From sequence record OM386662.1: DNA of 64,000 bases. One strand, given 5' to 3'. Positions 24,245 to 31,208 of this stretch are shown here, one piece after another (the stretch's first letter is position 1; each line of letters begins with the position of its first letter). Position numbers and translations under genes: made by a program. The notes below the pieces were generated by a model that saw only the letters and a program-made list of their open reading frames with translations, was not told where the DNA came from and ran no database searches. This DNA comes from Escherichia phage vB_EcoM_ESCO47.

Positions 24245-26458
24245 ATGATTATTGAAACGGCTAAAGAAACGATTATTGGTTCAGGCGGTAAGAGCACAGC
24301 ATTCACTATTCAAGCAAACAGTAAAGTGTATAAGATTCTTTCTAACGATCTTTACACAAACAAAGAACGAGCTTGTGTACGTGAATTAATCACAAACTGT
24401 ATTGATGGGCAAATTCTTAATGGCTGCACTGATAAGTTTATTGTTCAGGCACCAGGTCGTTTAGACCCACGTTTTGTAGTTCGAGACTTTGGTCCTGGTA
24501 TGAGTGATTTCACCATTCGAGGTAATGACGAAGAGCCAGGAATTTATAACTCATATTTTGCTTCAACTAAAACATCGAGTAACGATTTCATTGGTGGATT
24601 CGGACTCGGTTCTAAAGCTCCATTAGCATATACTGATACGTTTAACATTACTTCTTATCATAATGGTGAAGTTCGTGGTTATGTAATTTATCAAGATGAC
24701 AGTGGTCCACAGATTAAGCCAACCTTCGTAGATAAGATGGGTCCTGATGACCGGACCGGTGTTGAAGTAGTTGTGCCTGTTAACCCAGAAGATTTTGAAA
24801 AGTTCGCATCCGAAATTGCTTATGTTATGCGTCCTCTCGGCGATATTGCAGAAGTTCGTGGTGTTAAAGATATCAAATACTTCCCTGATTTCGACGACGT
24901 TTATCTGGCCAAGGATGCTCCATGGGGTGAACGTGGTAACATCATGGCTGTTTATGGTGGTATTGTATATCCTATCAGTGACGCTATTAAAGAACAAACA
25001 TGGATGATGACGCGATGCACTACAGCTTATATTAAATTCCCCATGGGTGAACTAGATGTAGCCCCGTCTCGTGAAGCATTGTCATTTGATAAACGTACAG
25101 TAGCAAATATCCATAAACGTGTTGCAGAAATTGATGCAAAATTATTTGCTGAAGATTCTAAGAAATGGATTGATTGTGAATATCCACGTCATGTATTCCG
25201 TGAAATCGATTCTCTTGGTTACTCTGCTCGTAAATACATGGAAAAAGCTGGTTCTAATATTGAATCACTGAAATATTCTAAAGAACAGCTAACTTATTCT
25301 GAGTTGTACAAACGTTTTAAAATGGGTCCTGAATGGTGCAACCTTGGTGTTGTATACGATATCGTTTCAGACCCACGTCTTCGTCGTATTCGTGAAAGCG
25401 GAAGCTCGTCTGCAACTATTTCAATTAATAGCCTGCTAGGTATTAGCCGTAAGCATATTGATATTGTTATTGACGATGTGAAAGGCCGCGTACCAATGAT
25501 GCGTGCTCTGAACGATGCTTTGACTTCCACTGATGCATCAACACTCGTTGATAAGGTTCCTTCCGGATGGGGTAGTAGCGTATTATTCATTAACCCGGAA
25601 GATGAAGTTGCAATGAAACTTCTAGAACGATTAAAGGTTATTTTCGCTGGGGATAGCCTTAAATTTTATAAGACATCTGAAATTCTTGCATTAGTTAAAC
25701 CGTGGATTGAAGTTAAAGAACGTTCATCGCAGCCTCGTCCTAAATCCCCAAGTGCTCATCGGTTCTTTAAGAATGAAAACGATGTTTGGGTATCAGAAGA
25801 TCTCTTTATTCCAGCGAGTGAAGCTGATGAAATCCAAGGTTATGCTATAGTTCGTAATCGTTCTAATGCTGAATGTCTTGACGCAGATAAAGGTTGGTTG
25901 AACTATGACTCCAATTTCTTGACCCGTATTGCTGATTTGTCAGGTATTAAAGAGTTCACTGTAGTCCGTCCACAGATTGCTAAGAAAGTTCGTAAACTTG
26001 GTGAAGTAGAATGCTTGTTCGAAAAATCAATTAATGACTATATTACGCTAATTGATAAAGTGGATTATGATGAGTATGTATCACCAAGTCGTAGAGCACA
26101 GCCTTATTTGAATCATATTACTCGTAATGAAGAGCTTAACTTCCTTAGTAAGTATTTTAGCTCTAAGAACAAAGAAATCAGTAAAGATTTTGCAAAACTT
26201 TCAACAGTAAATAATCGTTGGGGATGGAATCGATTCTCAGGTGTTACTAACAGAGAACTGAATAAGAAGTTGGAATTGTGTGCTAAAATTTTCGATAAGC
26301 TTAAAGATAATGCTTACGATAATGATGATAAAATGGTTATTGAATTCGAAACCAATTATCATATTGTGTCAGACTACATGGGACGACGTGGTACTCTTTC
26401 CAAAGAACAGGTCGCTCAAATCGTTAAATTCATGAAGGCCGTGGAAGCGGCCAAATAA
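24245..26458 (+). CDS. rIIA: rIIA membrane-associated protein (GHKL ATPase-like N-domain)
   Basis: 737 aa; Bergerat-fold motifs ELITNCIDG, DFGPGM, GGFGLGSKA; followed by rIIB. Confidence 0.9.
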   Translation: MIIETAKETIIGSGGKSTAFTIQANSKVYKILSNDLYTNKERACVRELITNCIDGQILNGCTDKFIVQAPGRLDPRFVVRDFGPGMSDFTIRGNDEEPGIYNSYFASTKTSSNDFIGGFGLGSKAPLAYTDTFNITSYHNGEVRGYVIYQDDSGPQIKPTFVDKMGPDDRTGVEVVVPVNPEDFEKFASEIAYVMRPLGDIAEVRGVKDIKYFPDFDDVYLAKDAPWGERGNIMAVYGGIVYPISDAIKEQTWMMTRCTTAYIKFPMGELDVAPSREALSFDKRTVANIHKRVAEIDAKLFAEDSKKWIDCEYPRHVFREIDSLGYSARKYMEKAGSNIESLKYSKEQLTYSELYKRFKMGPEWCNLGVVYDIVSDPRLRRIRESGSSSATISINSLLGISRKHIDIVIDDVKGRVPMMRALNDALTSTDASTLVDKVPSGWGSSVLFINPEDEVAMKLLERLKVIFAGDSLKFYKTSEILALVKPWIEVKERSSQPRPKSPSAHRFFKNENDVWVSEDLFIPASEADEIQGYAIVRNRSNAECLDADKGWLNYDSNFLTRIADLSGIKEFTVVRPQIAKKVRKLGEVECLFEKSINDYITLIDKVDYDEYVSPSRRAQPYLNHITRNEELNFLSKYFSSKNKEISKDFAKLSTVNNRWGWNRFSGVTNRELNKKLELCAKIFDKLKDNAYDNDDKMVIEFETNYHIVSDYMGRRGTLSKEQVAQIVKFMKAVEAAK

Positions 26459-26467
26459 GGAAACATT

Positions 26468-27403
26468 ATGTACAATATCAAATGCTTGTCCCAAGAAGAA
26501 CAGTTAGAAGCTTACGGCCTGGTTGAATCAGGCAAATGGACCCGTAAAGAAATTGCCGATTACTTTGACATTTCAACAGATACTCTTCGTAAGATTGTTA
26601 AGAATTTTAAAGCTGAAGAGAAAGCCTCTGAATTTGAAGACGAAGAACAGGTCCCAGAAAATAATGAACCTATTATTACAGGTCATCGTCCAGAAATCGT
26701 ATGGAACGCGTCGTCTAAATTTATTTCAATTATTGAAGGACGCGATTCATATAATGCGACACCAACAAGCCATGCGAATTTTGAAGAAATTAAAGCTAAT
26801 TTGGTCGCAGGAAACTTTGCTAAAGCTATCGAACTTATTAACCTCAAGAAAGCTATTACTAAGTATGTTGATGGTAATATTATTATTGAAGGTGGTCGCC
26901 TATTTTATCAAGGAATAGAAATTCGTTCAGGACTTGTCGATCGTATTATCGACTCTATGGAAAAAGGCGAAGACTTTAAATTTTATCTGCCATTCCTTGA
27001 AAACTTGTTAGAAAACCCAAGTGAAAAAGCAGTTCAACGCTTATTCGACTTCTTGGTTGCAAACGATATTGAAATCACTGAAGACGGTCATTTCTACGCA
27101 TGGAAAGTAGTTCGTAAAGACTATTTAGATTGCTATAGTGGCACATTTGATAACTCGCCTGGTAAAGTTGTTTCAATGCCTCGTACTCGTGTTAACGATG
27201 ATGATACTCAAACTTGTTCCAGTGGTCTACATGTTTGTGCTAAATCATATATTCGTTACTTTGGTTCTAGCTCAGATAAAGTTGTTAAGGTTAAAGTTCA
27301 TCCACGTGATGTTGTATCCATCCCAGTTGACTACGGTGATGCTAAGATGCGTACTTGTCGTTATGAAGTAATTTCAGACGTTACTGAATTATTTGCAGAA
27401 TAA
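26468..27403 (+). CDS. rIIB: rIIB protein
   Basis: 311 aa; MYNIKCL... and C-terminal half closely match T4 rIIB as I recall it. Confidence 0.93.
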   Translation: MYNIKCLSQEEQLEAYGLVESGKWTRKEIADYFDISTDTLRKIVKNFKAEEKASEFEDEEQVPENNEPIITGHRPEIVWNASSKFISIIEGRDSYNATPTSHANFEEIKANLVAGNFAKAIELINLKKAITKYVDGNIIIEGGRLFYQGIEIRSGLVDRIIDSMEKGEDFKFYLPFLENLLENPSEKAVQRLFDFLVANDIEITEDGHFYAWKVVRKDYLDCYSGTFDNSPGKVVSMPRTRVNDDDTQTCSSGLHVCAKSYIRYFGSSSDKVVKVKVHPRDVVSIPVDYGDAKMRTCRYEVISDVTELFAE

Positions 27404-27408
27404 TAATT

Positions 27409-27431
27409 GGGGACTTCGGTCCCCTTTTTTC
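27409..27431 (+). terminator. rho-independent terminator after rIIB
   Basis: GGGGAC-TTCG-GTCCCC then TTTTTT. Confidence 0.75.
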
Positions 27432-27444
27432 TTTAGGGGTAATT

Positions 27445-27732
27445 ATGATTCATCCATTTGACGTATCAGAATCCAAAATTGCTAATCTTCGCGGTCATCA
27501 TAAGTGTAAATCAGTTTATTGTGCTAAATTGGTAAAACATCCTGGCGATGCACACTACGGCTGGTTAGAATGTGACGAAGTTGTTATTGAAATCCCTCCT
27601 GTGGATGCAGAATACCTTGAAGAAGGTGATCGCATTTATTTAGGTGAACTACATATTAGAGGTATCTATGGTAAAGACGAACTTGGGACTACTGAGACTG
27701 AAGAGTCTTCCGACATTTATCCTGTCGAATGA
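27445..27732 (+). CDS. hypothetical protein (95 aa)
   Basis: Follows rIIB terminator; Cys/His-containing N-terminal half. Confidence 0.5.
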   Translation: MIHPFDVSESKIANLRGHHKCKSVYCAKLVKHPGDAHYGWLECDEVVIEIPPVDAEYLEEGDRIYLGELHIRGIYGKDELGTTETEESSDIYPVE

Positions 27733-27748
27733 GTTTCTGACTAGCGAA

Positions 27749-28225
27749 ATGAAGGTAAAGATCGCGGATACAGCCAAGTATTCTCTTAGTCAAGACCCTG
27801 ATCAAATCAAAGAAGACGTAGTTCGTCGTTGTAAGGTTGCAGTCTTTGCCGAGTATGTAGTCGCTAATTGGTTAGATGGATATGTTAATAAAGGCATTGA
27901 AGATGTTGAAGACCCTTACACGTATGCATGGGATGTTCTAGCTCATCCTAAATACTGTGGATTGCGTGTAGAAGTCAAGACTCATCAGATGGACTCACGT
28001 TGGATTTCAGTCACTACAGGATATAGTGGCGATTATCCGGGTGGTAATGGAATCAATATAGGGCCCTTCTTGAATCATCGAGTCGCAGATTGCATTATTA
28101 TATTAAATGCCAAAGAAACCTCACCTGACGTCTTCTCTTATTCTATAAAGTTCGCGGGAGACCATGAAGACCTAAAGAAAATCGTCCGCAAGAGCAACTA
28201 CAACGGGTGGTATCTTCATCTTTAA
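27749..28225 (+). CDS. putative PD-(D/E)xK-type nuclease (DenB position)
   Basis: D...EVK-like motif WDVLAHPKYCGLRVEVKT; start ambiguous (GTG 27644, ATG 27668 with AGAGG, or ATG 27749). Confidence 0.4.
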   Translation: MKVKIADTAKYSLSQDPDQIKEDVVRRCKVAVFAEYVVANWLDGYVNKGIEDVEDPYTYAWDVLAHPKYCGLRVEVKTHQMDSRWISVTTGYSGDYPGGNGINIGPFLNHRVADCIIILNAKETSPDVFSYSIKFAGDHEDLKKIVRKSNYNGWYLHL

Positions 28226-28237
28226 TTTCATAAAAGT

Positions 28238-28273
28238 GTTTACAGCTAAGTAGGACTATGATATAGTAGTCCT
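28238..28273 (+). promoter_or_regulatory. early promoter-like element with inverted repeat
   Basis: -35 GTTTAC 28238-28243, -10 TATAGT 28262-28267; arms AGGACTA 28252-28258 and TAGTCCT 28267-28273; ATG at 28294. Confidence 0.5.
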
Positions 28274-28293
28274 ATCTAAAGGAGGATAACATC

Positions 28294-28557
28294 ATGAAAT
28301 TTAAATTTTTCTACGCAAAACATAAAGTGACCGGTGAGTTTGTTTCAATGTACAACACCGCAGATGACGAAGGGATGATTTATACCCATTTGGGTCTATC
28401 TCATTGGGATTCAGACGTGCCTTATATGTCATCTGAAGCCGAAATAACTCGTCTGGTTAATGGACATATGAACGACCATTTTGGTGTTATTCTTTCTAAA
28501 GACCTTAAAGAGGTTATCAACAAAGGATATATGGAACTCGCGGAAGTTGAGATATGA
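28294..28557 (+). CDS. hypothetical protein (87 aa)
   Basis: Promoter element and GGAGGA RBS upstream. Confidence 0.5.
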   Translation: MKFKFFYAKHKVTGEFVSMYNTADDEGMIYTHLGLSHWDSDVPYMSSEAEITRLVNGHMNDHFGVILSKDLKEVINKGYMELAEVEI

Positions 28558-28640
28558 GCTCTAAAATGTGGATAGGAATATGGTTGCTTAGTATCCCAAT
28601 GATTTGTATAATATTTTCAATTGCATTGAGGTACTTATGA
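28554..28640 (+). CDS. hydrophobic micro-protein (28 aa)
   Basis: ATGA-coupled to upstream ORF; single predicted TM segment. Confidence 0.25.
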   Translation: MSSKMWIGIWLLSIPMICIIFSIALRYL

Positions 28641-28747
28641 AAAATGCACTTCTTATTGTACTAAGAACAATTTGTGATACGGGTTTTTACATTGCATGTT
28701 CGTTCACTGGAACATGGTTGGCTTTAACATATTTTAATGTAATTTAA
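28637..28747 (+). CDS. hydrophobic micro-protein (36 aa)
   Basis: ATGA-coupled to preceding micro-ORF; hydrophobic. Confidence 0.25.
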   Translation: MKNALLIVLRTICDTGFYIACSFTGTWLALTYFNVI

Positions 28748-28749
28748 TT

Positions 28750-28779
28750 GTTTACATCAAGGTAGGATTATGGTATAGT
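28750..28779 (+). promoter_or_regulatory. early promoter-like element
   Basis: -35 GTTTAC 28750-28755, -10 TATAGT 28774-28779, then AGTCCTATCAA; ATG at 28808. Confidence 0.5.
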
Positions 28780-28807
28780 AGTCCTATCAAAATATGAGGA
28801 ACACAAA

Positions 28808-29008
28808 ATGACTAAGCTTTTTAAAGATGTTGAAATTGGTGAAAAATTTGTCCTGAATAATGGTCAGCAGCTTATTCGTGTAGCTTCTATAGCCGGACAA
28901 ACTCATAACTGCATCGCCCCGACGTATTGGACCCGATTCTTTATTGAGGATGACACCGAATGTTTAACTGTTGAAGAGCTTTTTGAACGTTCTGATATAA
29001 CCGAATAA
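28808..29008 (+). CDS. hypothetical protein (66 aa)
   Basis: Promoter element and GAGGAA RBS upstream. Confidence 0.45.
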   Translation: MTKLFKDVEIGEKFVLNNGQQLIRVASIAGQTHNCIAPTYWTRFFIEDDTECLTVEELFERSDITE

Positions 29009-29010
29009 AA

Positions 29011-29046
29011 TTGTACAAACTCCTGAGAGCAGAGTATAATGCTCTC
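29011..29046 (+). promoter_or_regulatory. promoter-like element (TTGTAC type) with inverted repeat
   Basis: TTGTAC 29011-29016, -10 TATAAT 29035-29040; arms GAGAGCA 29025-29031 and TGCTCTC 29040-29046; near-identical copy at 56780; ATG at 29085. Confidence 0.5.
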
Positions 29047-29084
29047 ATGGATTACAAAACATCAACTTACTTGAGGAAATTTAT

Positions 29085-29534
29085 ATGAACAATTACATGA
29101 CTCGTCGCGATATCCTGGCAGCTGGTGGTACTACGGTTGCTTACGTTCAGAATGGTAAATACCAGTCAGGTGAACCATCTAAAGCGGTTGCAGCACAACC
29201 TGGATTCTACTTCTTTGTTAAAGGTTTTAGTAACTCTCGTGTAGTAGCTGCCCGGTTTTATGTAGGTAATCAACGTTCTAAACAGGGACTTGATGGTATT
29301 GTAGCTAATATCCGTAAACAACGTTCTCAAGCTGCTCGCACCATGGCCACCAACAACGTAATTTACGAAGTGTTATACGTCCCAGCATCTAAGATGAAAC
29401 CTCTGACAACCGGCATTGGTAAAAGACAGTTAGTGATGGCTTTCACTCGCAATCACAGTTCAGATCTACAGACACTGGAAGAAATGAACCGAATTCTGGC
29501 CGACAACTTTAAATTCATCTTACAGAGTTACTAA
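29085..29534 (+). CDS. ndd: nucleoid disruption protein Ndd-like
   Basis: 149 aa; [13 protein letters not shown]...[12 protein letters not shown]...TLEEMNR.LADNFKF matches T4 Ndd as I recall it; position between rIIB and 52. Confidence 0.6.
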
Positions 29535-29576
29535 TCCGGTAATAAAACGGCGTCTTAGGACGCCACTGGGGAAATT

Positions 29577-29741
29577 ATGCAACCGATTTTAACTTTTATC
29601 TGGTTAGTGACTGTTATTGTGTTGGTAACCCTTTTTGCAGCAGGTGTATGGGTTCCAGGTCCTTTTGTTGTTGGATTTATTTGTGTGTGGTTCATACTAG
29701 ACGCAATCGTTAAATTTTTAGTAACGGTATTTAACCGATGA
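29577..29741 (+). CDS. small membrane protein (54 aa)
   Basis: Hydrophobic; between ndd and 52 where T4 carries small peptides (stp/ac region). Confidence 0.4.
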   Translation: MQPILTFIWLVTVIVLVTLFAAGVWVPGPFVVGFICVWFILDAIVKFLVTVFNR

Positions 29742-29878
29742 TTAAACAAATCTTTGGCTACTCGATAGCCCTTGCTGCTTTATTAGTGGCATTATATTAT
29801 GGTGTTATGTTCGGGCTAATCCAAGTCGTGCTTTTCATTTCTGATGTTATTATGGCACTACATTCACTAGTATGGTAA
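29738..29878 (+). CDS. small membrane protein (46 aa)
   Basis: ATGA-coupled to upstream ORF; hydrophobic. Confidence 0.35.
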   Translation: MIKQIFGYSIALAALLVALYYGVMFGLIQVVLFISDVIMALHSLVW

Positions 29879-29882
29879 ATTT

Positions 29883-31208
29883 ATGCAACTGAATAATCGT
29901 GATTTAAAAAGTATTATTGATAATGAAGCACTAGCGTATGCAATGTATACGGTTGAAAACCGTGCAATCCCAAACATGATTGATGGGTTTAAACCGGTTC
30001 AACGATTTGTTATTCATCGTGCATTGGACTTGGCTCGTGGAAACAAAGAAAAATTCCATAAACTGGCTTCAATCGCTGGTGGTGTAGCTGATCTCGGTTA
30101 TCACCACGGTGAATCTTCAGCACAAGATGCCGGTGCTCTGATGGCTAACACATGGAATAACAACTATCCATTATTAGATGGACAAGGCAACTTTGGTTCA
30201 CGAACGGTTCAAAAGGCTGCAGCATCTCGTTATATTTTTGCTCGTATCAGTAAAAATTTCTATAACGTCTATAAAGATTCTGAGTATGCTCCAGAACATG
30301 AAGATAAAGAACACGTTCCACCAAAATTCTATCTTCCAATTATCCCGACGGTTCTATTGAACGGTGTTTCTGGTATCGCAACCGGGTATGCAACAAGCAT
30401 TCTGCCTCATAGTTTTAAATCTGTTAAGAAGGCTGTATTACAAGCTCTTCAAGGTAAAAATATCACTAAGCCTAAAGTTGAATTCCCAGAGTTTCGCGGC
30501 GAAGTGCATGAAGTTGAAGACCGATATGAAATTCACGGCACATATAAATTCACATCTCGGACTCAAATGCAAATCACCGAGATTCCATATAAATTTGATC
30601 GTGAAACGTATGTGAGTAAAGTTCTCGACCCGTTAGAAGATAAAGGGTTGATTACATGGGAAGATGACTGCGGTGAACATGGTTTCGGATTTAAGGTGAA
30701 GTTCCGTAAAGAGTATTCGCTTCCGGACGATGAAGCTCTTCGTCATGAGAAAATCATGAAAGACTTTAGTCTTATTGAACGTCGTTCCCAGAACATTACT
30801 GTTATCAATGAAAAAGGCAAGTTGGCTGTATATGATAACGTTGTTGATTTGATTAAAGATTTTGTTGAAGTCCGTAAGACTTACGTTCAAAAACGTATTG
30901 ACAACAAAATCGTTGAATCAGAAAAAGCTTTTAAACTAGCTTTTGCCAAGGCGCATTTTATCAAGAAAGTTATTGCCGGTGAAATCGTGATTCAAGGCAA
31001 GACTCGTAAAGCTTTGACCGAAGAGTTATCACAAGTGGAAATGTATAAAGAACATGTAGACAAGTTAGTAGGTCTTAACATCTTCCATATCACATCAGAT
31101 GAAGCACGTAAACTAGCAGAAGAAGCTAAAGCTAAGAAAGAAGAAAATGAGTACTGGAAATCTACAGATGTCGTAGCAGAGTACACTAAAGACCTGGAGT
31201 CTCTATGA
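29883..31208 (+). CDS. 52: DNA topoisomerase II medium subunit gp52 (GyrA-like)
   Basis: 441 aa; MIDGFKPVQRFV motif. Confidence 0.93.
   Translation: MQLNNRDLKSIIDNEALAYAMYTVENRAIPNMIDGFKPVQRFVIHRALDLARGNKEKFHKLASIAGGVADLGYHHGESSAQDAGALMANTWNNNYPLLDGQGNFGSRTVQKAAASRYIFARISKNFYNVYKDSEYAPEHEDKEHVPPKFYLPIIPTVLLNGVSGIATGYATSILPHSFKSVKKAVLQALQGKNITKPKVEFPEFRGEVHEVEDRYEIHGTYKFTSRTQMQITEIPYKFDRETYVSKVLDPLEDKGLITWEDDCGEHGFGFKVKFRKEYSLPDDEALRHEKIMKDFSLIERRSQNITVINEKGKLAVYDNVVDLIKDFVEVRKTYVQKRIDNKIVESEKAFKLAFAKAHFIKKVIAGEIVIQGKTRKALTEELSQVEMYKEHVDKLVGLNIFHITSDEARKLAEEAKAKKEENEYWKSTDVVAEYTKDLESL

What the first reader, a model, noticed from the sequence alone, without database searches (positions are those of the whole stretch)
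27644..28225. Putative nuclease at the DenB position with an ambiguous start
The product has a PD-(D/E)xK-like motif (D...EVK). Three candidate starts exist; the RBS-supported ATG at 27668 would overlap the upstream gene by 65 nt in another frame, so the real N-terminus is uncertain.
Basis: partly seen in the sequence, partly recalled or inferred. Interest (0 to 1): 0.3.

Follow-up and report, generated by a model that had tools for sequence, protein, structure and literature searches.

The report
Phage DenB endonuclease IV gene
This is the ordinary, already well-studied denB gene (endonuclease IV, a cytosine-specific single-strand DNA cutter) of an RB69-like T4-type phage, and comparison with relatives shows it most likely starts at the ATG at 27668, inside the end of the upstream gene.

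Summary
An ORF at 27644-28225 (+) has three in-frame starts: GTG 27644, ATG 27668 and ATG 27749. ATG 27668 overlaps the upstream gene (27445-27732, DUF7418) by 65 nt in another frame. The product carries D89...E102-V-K104.

The window is a Mosigvirus (RB69-like, about 92% nt identity). The gene lies in the T4 order rIIA-rIIB-(DUF7418)-denB-ndd-52. The product is 72% identical to T4 DenB (endonuclease IV, 185 aa) and matches phrog_1360 at E=1e-87.

The start question resolves in favour of ATG 27668 (185 aa):
- An ATG at the homologous position occurs in 47 of 48 loci, down to 34% identity.
- It has the only good Shine-Dalgarno (GAGGT, -7.1 kcal/mol against -2 to -3 for the others).
- Residues 1-27 stay conserved in lineages that lack the overlapping gene, and they fold confidently in AlphaFold2.
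- The Met at 27749 is not conserved and has no Shine-Dalgarno.

Public records disagree on this start (158, 185 and 206 aa).

The PD-(D/E)xK assignment is supported. E62, D89, E102 and K104 are invariant. A distant family member's model matches Hjc, RecU and EcoRV. A 2025 paper states the motif. The window protein's own model gave only sub-threshold PDB matches.

This is a known gene, so interest is low.

The parts
27668..28225 (+). denB coding sequence, preferred start (185 aa plus stop); orthologue of T4 endonuclease IV
   Evidence: 72% identity to T4 DenB over all 185 residues. phrog_1360 E=1.3e-87, covering residues 1-184. An ATG at the homologous position in 47 of 48 loci. AlphaFold2 mean pLDDT 89.7, with residues 1-30 at 90-95.
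27658..27663 (+). Shine-Dalgarno (AGAGGT) for denB, embedded in the Arg-Gly codons of the upstream gene
   Evidence: Anti-SD duplex energy is -7.1 kcal/mol here, against -3.3 (GTG 27644), -2.8 (TTG 27683) and -2.2 (ATG 27749). An SD-like match of at least 4 nt is found before the homologous ATG in 44 of 47 loci.
27668..27732 (+). 65-nt dual-coding overlap: denB codons 1-22 and the last 21 codons plus stop of the DUF7418 gene, in different frames
   Evidence: Overlaps of 53-80 nt in the same relative frame recur across several genera. Third-position freedom in the denB frame is reduced in the overlap (entropy 0.86, against 1.23 downstream).
27445..27732 (+). upstream gene, DUF7418 family (95 aa), function unknown
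   Evidence: PF24193 E=1.4e-37. phrog_2237 E=1.8e-35. RB69ORF272c homologue. Found in 700 phage records.
27851..27853 (+). codon for E62, an invariant acidic residue in helix 48-68 (the first acidic residue of the PD-(D/E)xK site)
   Evidence: Invariant in 26 diverse members. Lies in helix 48-68 of the model.
27929..27934 (+). codons for W88-D89. D89 is the 'D' of the PD-(D/E)xK motif. W88R abolishes T4 enzyme activity.
   Evidence: D89 is invariant. W88R leaves less than 0.4% activity in T4 (PMC2175332).
27971..27979 (+). codons for E102-V103-K104, the (D/E)xK of the motif, on beta strand 100-106
   Evidence: Invariant. Strand assignment from the model.
28193..28195 (+). codon for S176, which in T4 governs the restricted dC1-dC6 tract cleavage preference
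   Evidence: Invariant in close members. Residue confirmed in the window protein. T4 S176N data in PMC2175332.
27644..27646 (+). rejected start (GTG, 193 aa)
   Evidence: No Shine-Dalgarno (-3.3 kcal/mol). Directly preceded by an in-frame TAG at 27641. The upstream residues are not conserved as DenB sequence but reflect the DUF7418 frame.
27749..27751 (+). rejected start (ATG, 158 aa), the one annotated in RB69, moskry, LF82-41 and JS98
   Evidence: No Shine-Dalgarno (-2.2 kcal/mol). Met at this column in only 2 of 26 diverse members; others have D/S/A/T/I/L/N. Annotations.

Best explanation
This is the denB gene of an RB69-like (Mosigvirus) T4-type phage. It encodes endonuclease IV, a small Mg2+-dependent nuclease with a PD-(D/E)xK-type active site (E62, D89, E102, K104). 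The enzyme cuts single-stranded DNA on the 5' side of unmodified deoxycytidine. By analogy with T4, it spares the phage's own modified-cytosine DNA. It blocks replication of cytosine-containing (host or unmodified phage) DNA, is toxic to E. coli, and is the phage factor that nicks the msDNA of retron Eco2 and so triggers that defence.

Translation most likely starts at ATG 27668 and gives a 185-aa protein like T4's. Its ribosome-binding site and first 22 codons lie inside the 3' end of the upstream DUF7418 gene, read in another frame.

Shown here: orthology, synteny, conservation of the start, the Shine-Dalgarno and the catalytic residues, and a confident fold.

Inferred from T4/T2 literature, not tested on this protein: enzymatic specificity, Mg2+ dependence, biological role and retron triggering.
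For: Identity and context:
- The window is about 92% identical in nucleotide sequence to RB69-group phages.
- Gene order rIIB-ORF272c-denB-ORF270c-ndd.1-ndd-ac-52.1 matches RB69, and the rIIB...denB...ndd...52 order matches T4.
- The protein is 72% identical to T4 DenB (134 of 185 residues) and matches phrog_1360 'DenB-like DNA endonuclease IV' at E=1.3e-87.
- Functional residues known from T4/T2 are all present (PMC2175332; PMC12916289): W88, S176, G71, G180, W181.

Start codon:
- An ATG lies within +/-1 codon of the homologous position in 47 of 48 loci, from 96% down to 34% identity. The one exception is cut by a contig end.
- It has the best Shine-Dalgarno.
- The N-terminal pattern M-x-K-T/S-N-P-G-L/W-x-R-L...P-T-F persists in lineages with no overlapping upstream gene: T4-type, L026, L027, L036, L041, L048/49 and the metagenomic representatives P0024-P0036.
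- tblastn aligns query residues 1-185 in most relatives.
- In the AlphaFold2 model, residues 1-30 have pLDDT 90-95 and form helix 6-12 and strand 17-20.
- Active recombinant T4 enzyme was made from the equivalent ATG (PMC1635256).
- The TAG at 27641 closes the longer HX01-type extension.

Fold:
- E62, D89, R100, E102, V103, K104 and D141 are invariant.
- The AlphaFold2 model of distant member P0044 gives 50 of 50 top PDB hits to PD-(D/E)xK nucleases: Hjc at E=1e-3, prob 1.0, target-normalised TM up to 0.57, plus RecU, EcoRV, SwaI, DpnI and I-Ssp6803I.
- Weak Pfam hits to NOV_C/DUF3883 and Hjc, both PD-(D/E)XK families (PMC3424549).
- The PD_D/ExK motif in DenB is stated in PMC12405507.
Against: - There is no direct evidence for the N-terminus in any phage. 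No N-terminal proteomics or ribosome profiling was found, and the known T4/T2 denB mutations all lie downstream of residue 28, so they do not discriminate between starts.
- In lineages with the overlap, part of the nucleotide conservation in codons 1-22 is owed to the DUF7418 frame.
- The window protein's own model has no significant PDB match (best E=0.069, TM no more than 0.34).
- Sequence and profile searches of the PDB gave only chance hits.
- Several curated records (RB69, JS98 and others) annotate the 158-aa form.
Confidence: 0.85

Rival explanations
1. The gene is denB but translation starts at ATG 27749. This gives the 158-aa protein annotated in RB69 and many relatives, with no overlap of the upstream gene. 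On this reading the upstream in-frame conservation is only a by-product of DUF7418 coding.
For: RB69, moskry, LF82-41 and JS98 annotate this start. Met is present at this column in T4-, RB69- and JS98-type proteins. It avoids a 65-nt overlap.
Against: There is no Shine-Dalgarno (-2.2 kcal/mol). Met at this column occurs in only 2 of 26 diverse members. Residues 1-27 are conserved where no upstream gene overlaps. The N-terminal segment is confidently structured in the model. T4 work uses the 185-aa protein.
Confidence: 0.07
2. Both ATG 27668 and ATG 27749 are used, giving long and short DenB isoforms.
For: Both are in-frame ATGs, and Met28 is kept in the T4, RB69 and JS98 groups.
Against: The internal site has no ribosome-binding sequence. 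Met28 is absent from most of the family. There are no reports of two species. Purified T4 enzyme is described at the single predicted size of 21.1 kDa, but it was made recombinantly.
Confidence: 0.05
3. Translation starts at GTG 27644 (193 aa), the first start of the open frame.
For: It is the longest ORF.
Against: It has no Shine-Dalgarno. It immediately follows a stop codon. The eight extra residues correspond to nothing conserved in DenB. In relatives the open frame upstream varies in length and mirrors the DUF7418 frame.
Confidence: 0.02

Closest known systems
Bacteriophage T4 endonuclease IV (DenB, NP_049887, 185 aa)
   Same: 72% identity over the full 185 residues. Same length from the homologous ATG. 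Same genomic neighbourhood (rIIB upstream, ndd and gene 52 downstream). All residues with known phenotypes are conserved (G71, W88, S176, G180, W181), as is the E62/D89/E102/K104 set.
   Different: 28% of residues differ, and the N-terminal 27 residues are somewhat less conserved (17 of 27). In T4 the upstream DUF7418 gene is replaced by an unrelated denB.1 plus a 37-codon remnant, so T4 denB does not overlap an annotated gene.
RB69 DenB (AAP76170.1) and other Mosigvirus DenB proteins
   Same: 94-96% protein identity, with identical gene order and overlap geometry.
   Different: The RB69-type records annotate a 158-aa product from the downstream ATG, and HX01 annotates a 206-aa product. In this window a TAG at 27641 excludes the HX01-type start.
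PD-(D/E)xK nuclease superfamily (archaeal Hjc, RecU, EcoRV-type restriction enzymes)
   Same: An acidic residue on the first core helix. An Asp at the start of a strand. ExK on the next strand. A hydrophobic fourth strand. The distant DenB-family member P0044 matches Hjc, RecU and EcoRV structurally and Hjc weakly in Pfam.
   Different: No significant sequence similarity to any solved structure. The window protein's own model matches the PDB only below threshold. The family has extra N- and C-terminal elements. DenB acts on single-stranded DNA with dC specificity rather than on duplex sites or junctions (PMC1635256). DenB is not among the 121 groups catalogued in 2012.

Membership tests
DenB / T4 endonuclease IV family (phrog_1360; Pfam PF26887 in precomputed tables) | Full-length sequence homology to T4 DenB | tested here: met
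   72% identity across 185 residues. phrog_1360 E=1.3e-87. All 23 homologues carry PF26887. That family is absent from the local Pfam copy, so I could not read its name.
DenB / T4 endonuclease IV family (phrog_1360; Pfam PF26887 in precomputed tables) | Conserved genomic position between rIIB and ndd/gene 52 in T4-type phages | tested here: met
   ORFs of the window compared with the RB69 and T4 annotations.
DenB / T4 endonuclease IV family (phrog_1360; Pfam PF26887 in precomputed tables) | Residues with demonstrated function in T4/T2 (W88, S176, G71, G180, W181) | tested here: met
   All are present in the window protein. The phenotypes are described in PMC2175332 and PMC12916289.
DenB / T4 endonuclease IV family (phrog_1360; Pfam PF26887 in precomputed tables) | Mg2+-dependent, dC-specific cleavage of single-stranded DNA; no cleavage of modified-cytosine phage DNA | not testable with these tools
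   Known for the T4 enzyme only (PMC1635256, PMC2095790, PMC2175332). Inferred here from orthology.
PD-(D/E)xK nuclease superfamily | Catalytic signature: acidic residue on the core helix, Asp at a strand start, (D/E)xK on the following strand | tested here: met
   E62, D89, E102 and K104 are invariant in 26 diverse members. They lie on helix 48-68, bridge 89-90 and strand 100-106 of the model. The motif is also stated in PMC12405507.
PD-(D/E)xK nuclease superfamily | Core alpha-beta-beta-beta-alpha-beta fold similar to solved members (window protein's own model) | tested here: inconclusive
   In Foldseek against the PDB the best E is 0.069 and TM is no more than 0.34. The top hits (HincII, NlaIV, Sau3AI, Cas4 SSO0001, PvuRts1I, MGME1) are PD-(D/E)xK enzymes, but none is significant.
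PD-(D/E)xK nuclease superfamily | Fold similarity shown through a family member (transitive) | tested here: met
   P0044 matches the DenB profile at E=2.9e-5 and shares the invariant residues. Its model has pLDDT 85. All 50 top PDB hits are PD-(D/E)xK nucleases, with Hjc at E=1e-3, prob 1.00 and target-normalised TM 0.48-0.57. Its Pfam Hjc hit at E=0.0016 is just below the cut-off.

The most novel reading that the evidence does not exclude
The long out-of-frame overlap between the DUF7418 gene and denB is conserved across several T4-type genera (17-80 nt, always the same relative frame), with the denB ribosome-binding site buried in DUF7418 codons. It may be functional rather than incidental. 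It could throttle or couple translation of a highly toxic nuclease to the upstream gene, or DUF7418 (Cys/His-rich, with an acidic tail) could be a modulator of DenB. Nothing tested here supports more than the conservation of the arrangement. T4 itself manages without DUF7418.
Probability: 0.1. Interest if true: 0.35.

Novelty: already known. Interest (0 to 1): 0.1.

Why it matters
The scientific weight is small. denB is a textbook T4 gene, and its enzyme has been characterised biochemically.

There are two modest practical points:
- Public records of RB69-type and related phages annotate three or more different DenB N-termini (158, 185 and 206 aa, plus gene-caller variants). The comparative evidence here favours the 185-aa form, so more than a hundred RB69-type records probably carry a truncated DenB, and at least one carries an over-extended one that swallows the DUF7418 gene.
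- DenB has recently become relevant as the phage trigger of retron Eco2. Correct full-length sequences therefore matter to anyone expressing DenB homologues or predicting which phages activate that defence.

Tried and rejected
- Sequence and profile searches of the PDB with the protein and with two family profiles gave only chance-level hits (DHFR, PIL1).
- The local Pfam copy, NCBIfam and PADLOC have no model matching DenB.
- Rfam found nothing in 26000-30000.
- Foldseek of the window protein's own model against the PDB was not significant. I therefore modelled a distant family member instead, and that gave the PD-(D/E)xK link.
- The profile search of 1.84 billion representatives found only 26 proteins, so the family is narrow. 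One hit to a 4541-aa subtilase/beta-helix protein (P0046) is spurious.
- Codon-position entropy in the overlap shows dual constraint but cannot by itself say which frame is primary.
- I could not read model coordinates, so contacts between the N-terminal segment and the core were not measured.
- A +1 frameshift fusion of DUF7418 to DenB was considered and dropped. The conserved ATG plus Shine-Dalgarno, and the lineages lacking DUF7418, argue for independent initiation.
- TTG 27683, a gene-caller start in one metagenomic homologue, was rejected: no Shine-Dalgarno and not conserved.

Full report
**Observation.** An in-frame TAG sits at 27641. The in-frame start candidates are GTG 27644 (193 aa), ATG 27668 (185 aa) and ATG 27749 (158 aa), plus a weak TTG at 27683. 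The upstream ORF 27445-27732 (95 aa) ends 65 nt after ATG 27668, in a different frame. AGAGGT lies at 27658-27663, 4 nt before ATG 27668. The D...EVK motif is D89 and E102-V103-K104 in 185-aa numbering. All parts of the observation are confirmed.

**What the region is.** The 901 bases around the ORF match 155 phage records, nearly all at 90-95% identity, and all are RB69-group phages (genus Mosigvirus). The local gene order is:
- rIIA, 24245-26458
- rIIB, 26468-27403
- a DUF7418 gene, 27445-27732
- the ORF in question
- an RB69ORF270c homologue, 28294-28557
- ndd.1
- ndd, 29085-29534 (Pfam Phage_T4_Ndd, E=6e-67)
- ac
- 52.1
- gene 52

This is the order annotated in RB69 and, for the shared genes, in T4. 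The product is 72% identical to T4 DenB (134 of 185) and 94-96% identical to Mosigvirus DenB proteins. It matches PHROG 1360 'DenB-like DNA endonuclease IV' at E=1.3e-87 over residues 1-184. It is therefore the denB orthologue.

**The start codon.** Public annotation is inconsistent:
- T4 has 185 aa.
- RB69, moskry, LF82-41 and JS98 have 158 aa from the downstream ATG, which avoids the overlap.
- HX01 has 206 aa from a further upstream ATG, with the DUF7418 gene left unannotated.
- Metagenome gene callers give 180, 177, 172 or 158 aa.

I collected 46 related loci from IMG/VR, plus T4, RB69 and moskry, and examined the denB frame in each.
- An ATG lies within one codon of the position homologous to 27668 in 47 of 48 loci, from 96% down to 34% protein identity. 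The one exception is cut by the end of its contig.
- A Shine-Dalgarno-like match of at least 4 nt precedes it in 44 of 47.
- In the window, the predicted anti-SD duplex is -7.1 kcal/mol for ATG 27668. It is -3.3 for GTG 27644, -2.8 for TTG 27683 and -2.2 for ATG 27749.
- The Met at 27749 is not a family feature. In a 26-sequence alignment of diverse members it is Met in only two, and D, S, A, T, I, L or N elsewhere.

The 27 residues between the two ATGs carry a recognisable pattern (M-x-K-T/S-N-P-G-L/W-x-R-L-x-x-L/I-P/K-x-F). The pattern is kept in lineages where no upstream gene overlaps: T4-type phages, L026, L027, L036, L041, L048/L049 and many metagenomic representatives. This conservation therefore cannot be explained by the other reading frame.

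Three further points agree with this:
- In the AlphaFold2 model (mean pLDDT 89.7, pTM 0.86), the first three blocks of ten residues have pLDDT 90-95 and form a helix (6-12) and a strand (17-20).
- The strand is retained in the model of a relative that is only 23% identical.
- The T4 enzyme that was purified and shown active was built from the equivalent ATG (ATGCAGAAAACG...; PMC1635256), and the T4/T2 literature numbers residues on the 185-aa scale.

The TAG at 27641 excludes the HX01-type extension in this phage. I conclude that ATG 27668 is the start, at about 85% confidence. What is missing is any direct N-terminal evidence. The known denB mutations (Y38am, frameshift at nt 192/193, G71R, W88R, S176N, G180E, W181*) all lie downstream of residue 28 and do not discriminate.

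**The overlap.** The DUF7418 gene (PF24193, E=1.4e-37) is upstream of denB in 36 of 47 related loci. It usually overlaps the denB start by 53-80 nt (17 nt in one group), always in the same relative frame. It is present in 700 phage records, against 1090 with denB. The denB SD and ATG are made from the codons ...Arg-Gly-Ile-Tyr-Gly... of DUF7418.

In the overlap, variability by denB codon position is flattened (0.74/0.60/0.86) compared with downstream denB (0.53/0.42/1.23). This is the pattern expected of dual coding.

T4 has lost DUF7418. An unrelated denB.1 and a hairpin take its place, but T4 retains a 37-codon remnant whose tail (...SDSDIYPIEQ*) still ends 68 nt inside denB. In some T4-type phages and in L026 the remnant frame is broken by a stop while the nucleotides persist. 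That fits the denB frame being the constraint that keeps them.

**Fold and mechanism.** No solved structure is detectable by sequence, and the family is narrow: 26 representatives among 1.84 billion. Across diverse members the invariant residues are E62, D89, R100, E102, V103, K104 and D141. This corresponds to an acidic residue on the core helix, an Asp at a strand start and ExK on the next strand, which is the PD-(D/E)xK arrangement.

The structural and weak-homology evidence is as follows:
- The window protein's model gives only sub-threshold PDB matches (best E=0.069). The top ones are PD-(D/E)xK enzymes: HincII, NlaIV, Sau3AI, Cas4, PvuRts1I and MGME1.
- Against BFVD it matches DenB orthologues and 28 mostly unnamed phage proteins at E<1e-3.
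- Six of 23 members weakly hit Pfam NOV_C/DUF3883.
- The distant member P0044 hits Pfam Hjc at E=0.0016.
- Both of those Pfam families are PD-(D/E)XK families in the 2012 catalogue, which does not list DenB (PMC3424549).
- The AlphaFold2 model of P0044 (pLDDT 85) gives 50 of 50 top PDB hits to PD-(D/E)xK nucleases. These are led by archaeal Hjc (E=1e-3, probability 1.0, target-normalised TM 0.48-0.57) and include RecU, EcoRV, SwaI, DpnI and I-Ssp6803I.
- A 2025 paper independently states that DenB has a conserved PD_D/ExK motif (PMC12405507).

By orthology with T4/T2, the enzyme should be Mg2+-dependent, specific for single-stranded DNA and cut 5' of dC. It should prefer dC1-dC6 tracts, a preference governed by S176, and should be inactive on modified-cytosine phage DNA. 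It is expected to be toxic to E. coli, and it should be the trigger that nicks retron Eco2 msDNA (PMC1635256, PMC2095790, PMC2175332, PMC12916289). These properties are inferred, not tested, for this protein.

**Surroundings.** A terminator-like hairpin follows rIIB (27409-27424). A strong early-promoter-like site (TTTACA-17-TATAGT with TG, 28239-28267) follows denB, ahead of the next ORF. No promoter-like site lies between the hairpin and the DUF7418 start. DUF7418 and denB are therefore presumably read from upstream transcripts; this is an inference. Rfam, PADLOC and NCBIfam returned nothing for the region or proteins. The minus-strand ORFs across the region are short and have no support.

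**Verdict.** This is an ordinary, already known gene. The added value is a comparative resolution of the start codon (ATG 27668, 185 aa) and the note that many public records annotate a truncated or over-extended DenB.

Noticed in passing
window 27445-27732: The DUF7418 gene (95 aa) has a Cys/His-rich centre (HHKCKSVYCAKLVKHPGDAHYGWLEC) and an acidic tail. It lies upstream of denB in 36 of 47 related loci and overlaps the denB start in a fixed relative frame. It is present in 700 phage records. Its function is unknown.
   Followed up: partly
L003 (T4 NC_000866, reverse complement) about 1198-1311, i.e. between denB.1 and denB: T4 lacks DUF7418 but keeps an unannotated 37-codon remnant (MIYMNIGDSDIKESLNAENESWVTETISDSDIYPIEQ*) whose end lies 68 nt inside denB. 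In some T4-type phages the remnant frame is broken by a stop.
   Followed up: partly
L001 (RB69), L002, L050, L051 (JS98), L052 (HX01): Public records disagree on the denB start. RB69, moskry, LF82-41 and JS98 have 158 aa. HX01 has 206 aa with DUF7418 left unannotated. T4 has 185 aa. Metagenome gene callers give 180, 177 or 172 aa.
   Followed up: yes
window 28239-28267 and 28294-28557: A strong sigma-70/T4-early-like promoter (TTTACA, 17 nt, TATAGT with upstream TG) and an AGGAGG ribosome site precede an 87-aa ORF of unknown function (phrog_2390, RB69ORF270c homologue).
   Followed up: no
window 27409-27424: A GC-rich hairpin with a T-run (GGGGACTTCGGTCCCC TTTTTT) lies right after rIIB. An equivalent hairpin is annotated as a terminator in several relatives. 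No promoter-like site lies between it and the DUF7418 start.
   Followed up: no
proteins P0043-P0045: A distant DenB-like clade (21-24% identity) shares the invariant E/D/R-E-V-K/D residues. The model of one member (P0044) matches archaeal Hjc, RecU and EcoRV. BFVD also holds about 28 unnamed phage proteins with a DenB-like fold at 8-23% identity.
   Followed up: partly
window 29577-29878: As in RB69, there is no stp-like ORF between ndd and ac/52.1, unlike in T4.
   Followed up: no
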